Positions 34,173 to 35,191 of a DNA stretch of 64,000 bases are shown here, piece after piece. Both the position numbers and the translations under genes were made by a program. This stretch comes from Escherichia coli (lineage in GTDB: Bacteria > Pseudomonadota > Gammaproteobacteria > Enterobacterales > Enterobacteriaceae), in the NCBI RefSeq assembly GCF_003018255.1, contig NZ_CP027440.1; one strand, written 5' to 3'. The notes under the pieces are model-generated. The model was not told where the DNA came from, made no database searches, and saw only the letters and a program-made list of their open reading frames with translations. Within the stretch, counting starts at the first letter, position 1. Each line of letters starts with the position of its first letter.

Positions 34173-35191
34173 TCACCACCTCCACGTCCGATACGCGGAT
34201 CAATCCACAAATAGAGCAAATCCACCACCAGGTTCACCAGCACATAAGCAAACGAAACCACGACGGCAAAGCCCATCACTGCCGGGAAGTCGAGCGCCTG
34301 TATTGATGTTACTACCCATGCACCCATTCCGGGCCAGGCAAAAACGGTTTCGGTGAGCACTGCGCCATACAACAAATCGCCCAGCGCCAGTCCCAATACG
34401 GTAATCGAGGGGATCAACGCATTGGGTAGCGCATAACATAAAACGATATACCAGCCGGGCAAGCCGCTGGCCCGGGCGGTACGAATGTAATCTTCACTCA
34501 ATTGTTCCAGCATAGCTGAGCGGATCTGGCGAGCGACAATTCCCAGGTGAACGAACGCCAGCGTTAATGCCGGTAAGATGAGATGTTGCAGCGCATTGAA
34601 GAAGACTTCACCGTTGCCTTCAAGCAGCGCATCGAGCAGATAAAAGCCGGTAACGTGCGTTGGTGGATCCAGCCAGTCATCAAGCCTTCCGCCGCCGGGA
34701 AGAATTTGCAGATGACCATAAAACAGCACAATGACGCCCAGCCCAAGCCAGAACGCAGGTGTGGAGATTCCGGTAATGGCCATTATTCGCACCAGATGAT
34801 CCAGCCAGCGATTTCGCCAGACTGCAGAGAGTATGCCCAGCGGGATGCCAATCAGAAGTGCCAGCAGCAGGGCACAAAAAGCCAGTTCCAGCGTCGCCGG
34901 GAAAAATATGCGCAACTCTTCCAGCACCGGACGCCCGGTACGAATGGATGTTCCCAGGTCACCCTAAAACAGGTCGCTGACGTAGCGGTAAAACTGTACG
35001 TACAGTGGCTGGTCCAGTCCCAGTTGCTGGCGAATATTATCCACGATAGCATCGCTGGCGCGGTCACCCGCCAGTAACCGCGCCGGATCGCCGGGGATCA
35101 GGTGCGAGATAATAAACGTTATCACACAGACGCCCGCCACCACGAGCACCAGCCCCCAGCAGCGTTGGCGTAAAATACTCCAGAAGGTCAC
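34169..35191 (-). pseudogene. ddpB: D,D-dipeptide ABC transporter permease with one in-frame TAG (~34964-34966); otherwise full length
   Basis: Track ORFs 34964..35191 and 34169..34927 are in the same frame; the 1023-nt span equals the expected 340 codons plus stop, split by a single amber codon (...RYVSDLF-stop-GDLGTSIRTGRP...). Confidence 0.7.

What the first reader, a model, noticed from the sequence alone, without database searches (positions are those of the whole stretch)
34964..34966. Single amber codon interrupts ddpB inside an otherwise intact ddpXABCDF operon
The two track ORFs covering ddpB are in the same frame and together span exactly the expected 340 codons, separated by one TAG in a conserved permease segment (...RYVSDLF-stop-GDLGTSIRTGRP...). 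This is a point nonsense mutation, not a frameshift or deletion. It is likely polar on the downstream transporter genes and would leave ddpX (dipeptidase) without its dedicated importer. With the GNAT TAA, this is the second unprogrammed in-frame stop in the window, suggesting ongoing pseudogenisation of dispensable genes.
Basis: partly seen in the sequence, partly recalled or inferred. Interest (0 to 1): 0.45.

Follow-up and report, generated by a model that had tools for sequence, protein, structure and literature searches.

The report
Inherited amber stop in ddpB
One base change (CAG to TAG at codon 76) has knocked out one membrane subunit of a dispensable E. coli D-Ala-D-Ala dipeptide importer; it is a real mutation inherited by a whole bacterial lineage, and it is an ordinary pseudogene.

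Summary
ddpB lies on the minus strand at 34169-35191: 340 codons, one frame, with a single in-frame TAG at codon 76 (plus-strand CTA, 34964-34966).

It is not a sequencing error. The same allele is present in at least seven independently assembled sequencing runs (one contig is recorded in 20 or more samples), on at least four slightly different haplotypes. None of 5,426 complete RefSeq E. coli genomes carries it, so it is restricted to one lineage.

The other five ddp genes and the sigma-54 promoter region are intact. The stop falls in the periplasmic loop after the first transmembrane helix. It removes the whole BPD_transp_1 permease core, so the DdpABCDF importer should be dead. No convincing restart signal follows the stop.

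Polarity on ddpCDF is plausible but unsupported: there is no clear Rho-loading stretch, and ddpC has its own strong ribosome-binding site.

"Ongoing pseudogenisation" is overstated. The GNAT TAA is an older lesion, base-identical in the nearest relative and more decayed in Nissle 1917. The operon is dispensable: 21% of complete E. coli genomes lack ddpB. Interest is low.

The parts
37383..37398 (-). sigma-54 (-24/-12) promoter-like site TGGCATGAGATCTGCA, about 45 nt upstream of the ddpX ATG
   Evidence: Consensus scan and direct reading. The match alone is at chance level for the window (19 found, 25.6 expected). Its position agrees with the experimentally confirmed NtrC/RpoN-dependent ddpX promoter of K-12 (PMC8743547). 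There is no difference from JNE112863 here.
36757..37338 (-). ddpX, D-alanyl-D-alanine dipeptidase, intact (193 aa)
   Evidence: NCBIfam equivalog NF007557, 330.5 bits against a cut-off of 176. No internal stop.
35193..36743 (-). ddpA, periplasmic substrate-binding protein, intact (516 aa)
   Evidence: Identical in sequence to the annotated intact ddpA of JNE112863. No internal stop. SBP_bac_5.
34967..35191 (-). ddpB codons 1-75 (GTG start): first transmembrane helix plus part of the periplasmic loop. This is the only part that can be translated.
   Evidence: Translation. Pfam BPD_transp_1_N, residues 7-75, E=1.2e-13.
34964..34966 (-). premature amber codon TAG (codon 76), derived from CAG (Gln) by a plus-strand G to A change at 34966
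   Evidence: The context is TTTCAGGG, which is not a Dcm CCWGG site.
34169..34963 (-). ddpB codons 77-340 plus the TGA, now untranslated. It holds the whole BPD_transp_1 core, including the EAA-type loop (EDYIRTARASGLPG...). An in-frame GTG (codon 89, at 34927) has no convincing Shine-Dalgarno sequence.
   Evidence: Pfam PF00528, E=3.3e-45. Upstream context of candidate restart codons. Alignment to E. coli DppB 8z1v_A.
33276..34172 (-). ddpC, second permease subunit, intact (298 aa). Its ATG overlaps the ddpB TGA (ATGA), and GGAGGTGG lies just upstream.
   Evidence: NCBIfam equivalog NF007376, 623 bits against a cut-off of 434. Sequence. No internal stop.
32293..33279 (-). ddpD, ATP-binding subunit, intact (328 aa)
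   Evidence: The one synonymous difference from JNE112863 (32617) is derived in JNE112863.
31374..32300 (-). ddpF, ATP-binding subunit, intact (308 aa)
   Evidence: The Q/R303 difference from JNE112863 (31393) is derived in JNE112863; the window keeps the allele of all outgroups.

Best explanation
This is a genuine, vertically inherited nonsense mutation. A single G:C to A:T transition changed Gln76 (CAG) of ddpB to amber (TAG) in the ancestor of a narrow E. coli lineage.

Translation ends after 75 residues, which cover the first transmembrane helix and part of the following periplasmic loop. The permease core is not made, including the cytoplasmic loop that couples to the ATPases. Importers of the Dpp/Opp type need both permease subunits (here DdpB and DdpC), so the DdpABCDF D,D-dipeptide importer is most likely non-functional. 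ddpX, ddpA, ddpC, ddpD, ddpF and the NtrC/sigma-54 promoter are still intact. The gene is at an early stage of neutral decay in an operon that E. coli often lacks.

Shown here: the mutation, its direction, its heritability and the intactness of its neighbours. Inferred: loss of transport, any polarity on ddpCDF, and neutrality.
For: 1. A single in-frame TAG at codon 76 in an otherwise full-length gene.
2. ddpB differs by one base from the nearest complete genomes, which have CAG and an intact annotated ddpB (WP_000145091.1).
3. The same TAG is in independent assemblies SRR23828367, ERR3653869, SRR36161698, SRR13450396, SRR7947255, SRR1951444 and SRR30944597. One 18,859-bp contig is recorded in 20 or more samples. 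The exact 75-aa product is recorded on 36 contigs, a count that also includes non-TAG contigs broken at this position.
4. The allele sits on at least four haplotypes that have since gained their own SNPs: ddpX D16N, ddpA A189E and ddpB S232S. It therefore predates the sequenced strain.
5. None of 5426 complete RefSeq E. coli genomes has the TAG-bearing 61-mer.
6. The stop lies upstream of the whole PF00528 domain and aligns just before the GDLG motif of the solved E. coli DppB.
7. No Shine-Dalgarno-like sequence precedes the in-frame GTG89 or TTG93.
8. The operon is dispensable: ddpB is absent from 1148 of 5426 genomes, and ddpF is frameshifted in the relative 200164.
Against: No functional data exist, so loss of transport is inferred from family knowledge. 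The rest of the genome could not be examined, so an amber-suppressor tRNA allele cannot be excluded; the window itself has no tRNA genes. Low-level natural read-through of UAG by tRNA-Gln would restore the wild-type residue (my own knowledge, not measured here). All other ddp genes are still intact. That fits a recent event, but it would also fit continued use of the operon.
Confidence: 0.87

Rival explanations
1. The TAG is a sequencing or assembly error in the window's source genome, and the real gene is intact.
For: A single-base difference from the nearest complete genomes is what a base-calling error would look like. No complete RefSeq genome shares it.
Against: The identical TAG occurs in many independently assembled runs, on at least four haplotypes that differ by other SNPs.
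Confidence: 0.02
2. The amber codon is decoded, either by a supE-type or other amber-suppressor tRNA in this lineage or by leaky termination. Enough full-length DdpB is then made for the importer to keep working.
For: All five other ddp genes and the promoter remain intact although the allele has persisted through some lineage diversification. Near-cognate tRNA-Gln read-through of UAG would reinsert the original Gln (my own knowledge).
Against: There is no tRNA gene in the window and no evidence of a suppressor. Amber suppressors are rare in natural isolates (my own knowledge). Two of the three SNPs that arose after the TAG in the operon are non-synonymous. That is compatible with relaxed constraint, though the numbers are far too small to test it.
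Confidence: 0.05
3. Translation restarts at the in-frame GTG (codon 89, 34927). This would yield a 252-aa permease core that works alone or together with the 75-aa N-terminal fragment, as a split gene.
For: GTG89 lies only 36 nt after the stop and in frame, and gene callers predict the 252-aa ORF. Restarts after early nonsense codons are a classical phenomenon in lacI (my own knowledge).
Against: The upstream sequence CCATTCGTACCGGGCGTCCG has no Shine-Dalgarno-like motif. Residues 76-88, which include the conserved GDLG motif, would be missing from both pieces. The core would lack the first transmembrane helix, which sets membrane topology in this family.
Confidence: 0.03
4. The knockout was positively selected rather than neutral. 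One example would be selection to block uptake of a toxic peptide or antibiotic that enters through the Ddp permease.
For: The allele is fixed in a lineage sampled many times. Peptide ABC importers are known entry routes for toxic peptides (my own knowledge).
Against: There is no sign of recurrent, independent ddpB hits. Most of the apparent 'other disruptions' retrieved were scaffold N-runs or contig ends. The three small indels came from metagenome-derived assemblies and could be errors. No literature links ddpB to such a phenotype. A single fixed event is fully explained by drift or hitch-hiking in a clone.
Confidence: 0.06

Closest known systems
E. coli ddpXABCDF operon (D-Ala-D-Ala dipeptidase DdpX plus a Dpp-like ABC importer), NtrC/sigma-54 and stationary-phase regulated
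   Same: Same gene order, lengths and flanks (dosP upstream, osmC downstream). It is 99.9% identical to annotated operons in complete E. coli genomes. DdpX and DdpC pass NCBIfam equivalog cut-offs. A sigma-54-like site lies where K-12 has its confirmed promoter.
   Different: ddpB carries Q76amber. No other complete RefSeq E. coli genome has this allele.
E. coli DppBCDF dipeptide permease (solved structure 8z1v; DppB chain A)
   Same: DdpB aligns end to end with DppB (E=3.1e-83). They share the N-terminal helix, the GDLG motif and the BPD_transp_1 core.
   Different: They are paralogues, not the same transporter: the DppB equivalog model scores 299.8 bits against a cut-off of 590. The window's copy is truncated at the residue that aligns with the DppB His preceding GDLG.
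Lineage-specific nonsense pseudogenes in dispensable operons of natural E. coli/Shigella isolates
   Same: A single disabling point mutation in an otherwise intact, frequently absent operon, inherited clonally.
   Different: Nothing unusual. No IS element is involved, it is not a mutational hot-spot site (not CCWGG), and there is no evidence of convergence.

Membership tests
ddpB orthologue (permease subunit of the E. coli DdpABCDF transporter) | Near-identical sequence and same position between ddpA and ddpC in the ddpXABCDF operon | tested here: met
   1022 of 1023 nt identical to annotated ddpB of strains 200164 and JNE112863. Collinear flanks over 64 kb.
ddpB orthologue (permease subunit of the E. 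coli DdpABCDF transporter) | Uninterrupted 340-codon reading frame | tested here: not met
   TAG at codon 76. It is a disabled copy of the orthologue, not a functional member.
Type I ABC importer permease, Dpp/Opp class (BPD_transp_1_N + BPD_transp_1) | N-terminal helix/loop domain PF19300 followed by PF00528 core with EAA-type coupling loop | tested here: met
   At the DNA level both domains are encoded (PF19300 E=1.2e-13; PF00528 E=3.3e-45). They are separated by the stop, so only the first can be translated.
Type I ABC importer permease, Dpp/Opp class (BPD_transp_1_N + BPD_transp_1) | Complete partner set: second permease, two ATPases, substrate-binding protein | tested here: met
   ddpC, ddpD, ddpF and ddpA are intact.
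Pseudogene by nonsense mutation | Disabling change relative to intact orthologues, with the direction of change established | tested here: met
   CAG in the four nearest genomes, CAG or CAT in the outgroup loci that cover the codon, and TAG only in this lineage.
Pseudogene by nonsense mutation | Mutation is real and heritable (not an assembly artefact) | tested here: met
   Independent assemblies and at least four haplotypes carry it.
Pseudogene by nonsense mutation | No compensating decoding (suppressor tRNA, programmed read-through, functional restart) | tested here: inconclusive
   No tRNA in the window and no Shine-Dalgarno sequence before GTG89. The rest of the genome was not available, and expression cannot be measured here.
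Polar nonsense mutation (Rho-dependent) | Reduced transcription of downstream genes caused by an untranslated, C-rich/G-poor RNA stretch | not testable with these tools
   Only composition could be examined. C/G is 0.4-1.4 in 80-nt windows over the 792 untranslated nt, peaking at 1.2-1.4 near 34524-34643, so there is no clear rut-like tract. In K-12 the operon already shows a steep 5'-to-3' drop in induction (ddpX 104.5-fold against ddpF 2.2-fold; PMC8743547).

The most novel reading that the evidence does not exclude
The loss of DdpB was adaptive in a successful human-associated E. coli lineage, for example by closing an entry route for a toxic peptide or by retuning D-Ala-D-Ala recycling while keeping the DdpX dipeptidase. 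The still-intact remainder of the operon would then reflect continued use rather than recent mutation.
Probability: 0.05. Interest if true: 0.35.

Novelty: already known. Interest (0 to 1): 0.08.

Why it matters
It matters little beyond annotation. In this lineage ddpB should be annotated as a pseudogene (Q76*), not as two ORFs of 75 and 252 aa. The predicted phenotype is loss of Ddp-mediated D,D-dipeptide uptake under nitrogen limitation or in stationary phase. The SNP is a clean lineage marker: it is absent from 5,426 complete genomes and present in dozens of sequencing runs. There is also a caution for database users. Many of the '75-aa' and '252-aa' DdpB fragments in protein collections are artefacts of contig ends and scaffold gaps, not real truncations.

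Tried and rejected
1. Sequencing error. Rejected: exact-sequence look-ups of both ORF products found the allele in many independent assemblies.

2. Recurrent or convergent ddpB inactivation. The 252-aa fragment is recorded in 111 collection blocks, which looked promising. Inspection showed that L018, L019, L021-L023 and L025 are broken by runs of N. L010-L013 and L015 are contigs that end at the CAG/CAT polymorphic site. Only L017, L020 and L024 have small indels, and they come from metagenome-derived assemblies. This is not evidence of convergence.

3. Dcm deamination hot spot, as for the classical lacI ambers. Rejected: the context is TCAGG, not CCAGG.

4. Excess of changes in the ddp operon on the window's branch. 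Rejected: the ddpD and ddpF differences are derived in JNE112863, so the window has only the nonsense change.

5. Identifying the source genome. There was no exact match among GTDB species representatives. records a 4,892,666-bp NCBI contig carrying the 75-aa product, but it could not be retrieved. No paper mentions the nearest strains.

6. Literature on ddpB pseudogenes: nothing relevant. The Lessard and Walsh PNAS 1999 paper on DdpX is not held, so statements about DdpX physiology rest on my own knowledge.

7. Suppressor tRNA: none in the window.

Full report
**Observation.** The window's plus strand reads CTA at 34964-34966, which is TAG on the minus strand. Translating the minus strand from 35191 to 34169 gives 340 codons plus a terminal TGA, with one internal stop at codon 76...QFYRYVSDLF*GDLGTSIRTGRPVLEEL.... 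They are in the same frame.

**What the gene is.**
- A megablast of the 1,023 bases against 5,426 complete RefSeq E. coli genomes hit 4,278 of them, always on a gene annotated ddpB and followed by ddpC.
- The whole 64-kb window is collinear with E. coli JNE112863 (NZ_AP045072.1). There are 276 mismatches, most of them packed into a few recombination-like tracts.
- In that genome and in strain 200164 the gene order is dosP, ddpX, ddpA, ddpB, ddpC, ddpD, ddpF, osmC.
- In the window, ddpX (193 aa), ddpA (516), ddpC (298), ddpD (328) and ddpF (308) have no internal stops.
- DdpX and DdpC pass NCBIfam equivalog cut-offs for D-Ala-D-Ala dipeptidase and D,D-dipeptide ABC permease.
- Upstream of ddpX lies a -24/-12-type sequence, TGGCATGAGATCTGCA (37383-37398, minus strand). 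This is where K-12 has its experimentally confirmed NtrC/RpoN-dependent ddpX promoter driving ddpXABCDF as one operon (PMC8743547). The consensus match on its own is at chance level; its position is what counts.

**Direction and nature of the change.**
- Against strains 200164 and JNE112863, ddpB differs at one base only: coding-strand position 226, C to T (plus-strand G to A at 34966). That turns codon 76 from CAG (Gln) into TAG.
- Other E. coli lineages have CAG or CAT (His) at this codon. The solved E. coli DppB (8z1v_A, E=3.1e-83) has His at the aligned position, immediately before the conserved GDLG motif.
- The context TTTCAGGG is not a Dcm site, so this is not the classical 5-methylcytosine amber hot spot. 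It is an ordinary G:C to A:T transition.

**Is it real?**
- The exact 75-aa product and the exact 252-aa product were looked up in a collection of public assemblies.
- Contigs from SRR23828367, ERR3653869, SRR36161698, SRR13450396, SRR7947255, SRR1951444 and SRR30944597 carry the same TAG.
- One 18,859-bp contig is recorded in 20 or more samples. The exact 75-aa sequence is recorded on 36 contigs, the longest 4,892,666 bp. That count also includes non-TAG contigs that simply end at this position.
- These contigs are 99.97-100% identical to the window but not all identical to each other. Some have additionally acquired ddpX D16N (37293), ddpA A189E (36178) or ddpB S232S (34496).
- The amber allele therefore sits on at least four haplotypes. 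It arose before they diverged and has been inherited since, so a sequencing error is excluded.
- Conversely, none of the 5,426 complete RefSeq genomes contains the TAG-bearing 61-mer; the best hits have one mismatch. GTDB species representatives do not contain it either. It marks one narrow lineage.

**Polarising the other differences.** The window differs from JNE112863 at two more sites in the operon: 31393 (ddpF Q/R303) and 32617 (ddpD, synonymous). At both, the window agrees with strain 200164 and with all more distant loci, so those changes belong to JNE112863. The only derived change of the window's lineage in the 6-kb operon is the nonsense mutation. It is also the only nonsense difference from JNE112863 in the whole 64 kb.

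**Consequence (inferred).**
- The 75-residue product matches only Pfam BPD_transp_1_N. The entire BPD_transp_1 core lies downstream of the stop, including the EAA-type loop (EDYIRTARASGLPG...) that in this family contacts the ATPase.
- Dpp/Opp-type importers use a heterodimer of two permease subunits (family knowledge; compare the DppBCDF structures found). Without DdpB the DdpABCDF transporter should not work, whatever happens to the downstream genes.
- A restart is unlikely. The in-frame GTG89 and TTG93 have no Shine-Dalgarno-like sequence upstream. Any such product would lack the first transmembrane helix and the GDLG segment.
- Polarity on ddpCDF is possible, since 792 nt become ribosome-free. 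But 80-nt windows show C/G ratios of only 0.4-1.4 with no clear rut-like tract, and ddpC has its own GGAGGTGG just before an ATG that overlaps the ddpB TGA. I treat polarity as unproven.
- In K-12 the operon already shows a steep fall in induction from ddpX (104.5-fold) to ddpF (2.2-fold) (PMC8743547).
- DdpX is still intact and, being cytoplasmic (my own knowledge), could still hydrolyse endogenous D-Ala-D-Ala.

**Is it part of a trend?**
That TAA exists (9365-9367): the frame continues ...ARAFYT*QGFINEAIIRNYYDVGEDKLIFTKNMQS*.
- However, the region is base-for-base identical in JNE112863, where PGAP annotates the 126-aa product as a gene.
- The gene is found in only 660 of 5,426 genomes. In Nissle 1917 it is more decayed, with an earlier stop and a frameshift. 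It is an old remnant next to ISAs1 copies, not a recent event.
- dosC is also largely deleted in the window, and this too is shared with JNE112863.
- These lesions are of different ages, so they do not indicate an unusual burst of decay.
- The ddp operon itself is plainly dispensable in E. coli. 21% of complete genomes lack ddpB, and ddpF is frameshifted in the close relative 200164.

**A false lead.** The 252-aa fragment is recorded in 111 blocks of the collection, which suggested that many lineages have independently broken the 5' part of ddpB. Inspection showed otherwise. Most cases are scaffolds with runs of N inside ddpB. The non-TAG '75-aa proteins' are contigs that stop at the CAG/CAT polymorphic site. 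Only three loci have small indels, and they come from metagenome-derived assemblies. There is no good evidence of convergent inactivation.

**What could not be done.**
The window has no tRNA genes.
- The lineage could not be named. The literature search found nothing on the nearest strains or on ddpB pseudogenes.
- The primary paper on DdpX physiology is not held.

**Verdict.** This is a confirmed, real, lineage-fixed nonsense mutation (Q76amber, CAG to TAG). It makes ddpB a pseudogene in an otherwise intact but dispensable operon. It is a known kind of event with a predictable consequence. It is useful for annotation and as a clonal marker, and of low general interest.

Noticed in passing
window 8987-9480 (TAA at 9365-9367): A GNAT acetyltransferase gene has an in-frame TAA after codon 126, followed by a recognisable GNAT C-terminus. 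The sequence is identical in JNE112863, where it is annotated as an intact 126-aa protein. The gene is present in only 660 of 5426 complete E. coli genomes and is more decayed in Nissle 1917.
   Followed up: partly
window 40184-40227 (between dosP and digH): dosC is almost entirely deleted. Compared with strain 200164, two deletions of about 530 and 685 bp leave a 165-nt 3' remnant and a 44-nt island. The second deletion reaches 42 nt upstream of the dosC start, so dosP has lost its operon partner and probably its promoter. The deletion is shared with JNE112863, and the TAG-bearing contig L028 likewise has no dosC gene call between digH and dosP.
   Followed up: partly
window 12000-19500, 22000-25700, 46850-47600, 56000-59000: Differences from JNE112863 are concentrated in dense, mostly synonymous clusters in narY/narZ, fdnG/fdnH, pqqL and ydeO-ydeP. 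This looks like homologous-recombination tracts on an otherwise near-identical background.
   Followed up: no
window 463-1753 and 7125-8415: Two ISAs1-family copies, 96% identical to each other, flank an Rhs core gene and a truncated T4 gp5-trimerisation-domain fragment. The same layout is present in JNE112863.
   Followed up: no
L001 7892-8814 (E. coli 200164): A close relative with intact ddpB has ddpF annotated as frameshifted. This is an independent hit on the same operon.
   Followed up: no
L010-L013, L015, L018-L025: Public protein collections hold many spurious 75-aa and 252-aa 'DdpB' entries. They come from contigs that break at the CAG/CAT polymorphic site of codon 76 or from runs of N in scaffolds, and they mimic truncation alleles.
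   Followed up: yes
window 57164-57166: Paired 1-bp deletion and 1-bp insertion relative to JNE112863 in the safA-ydeP intergenic region.
   Followed up: no
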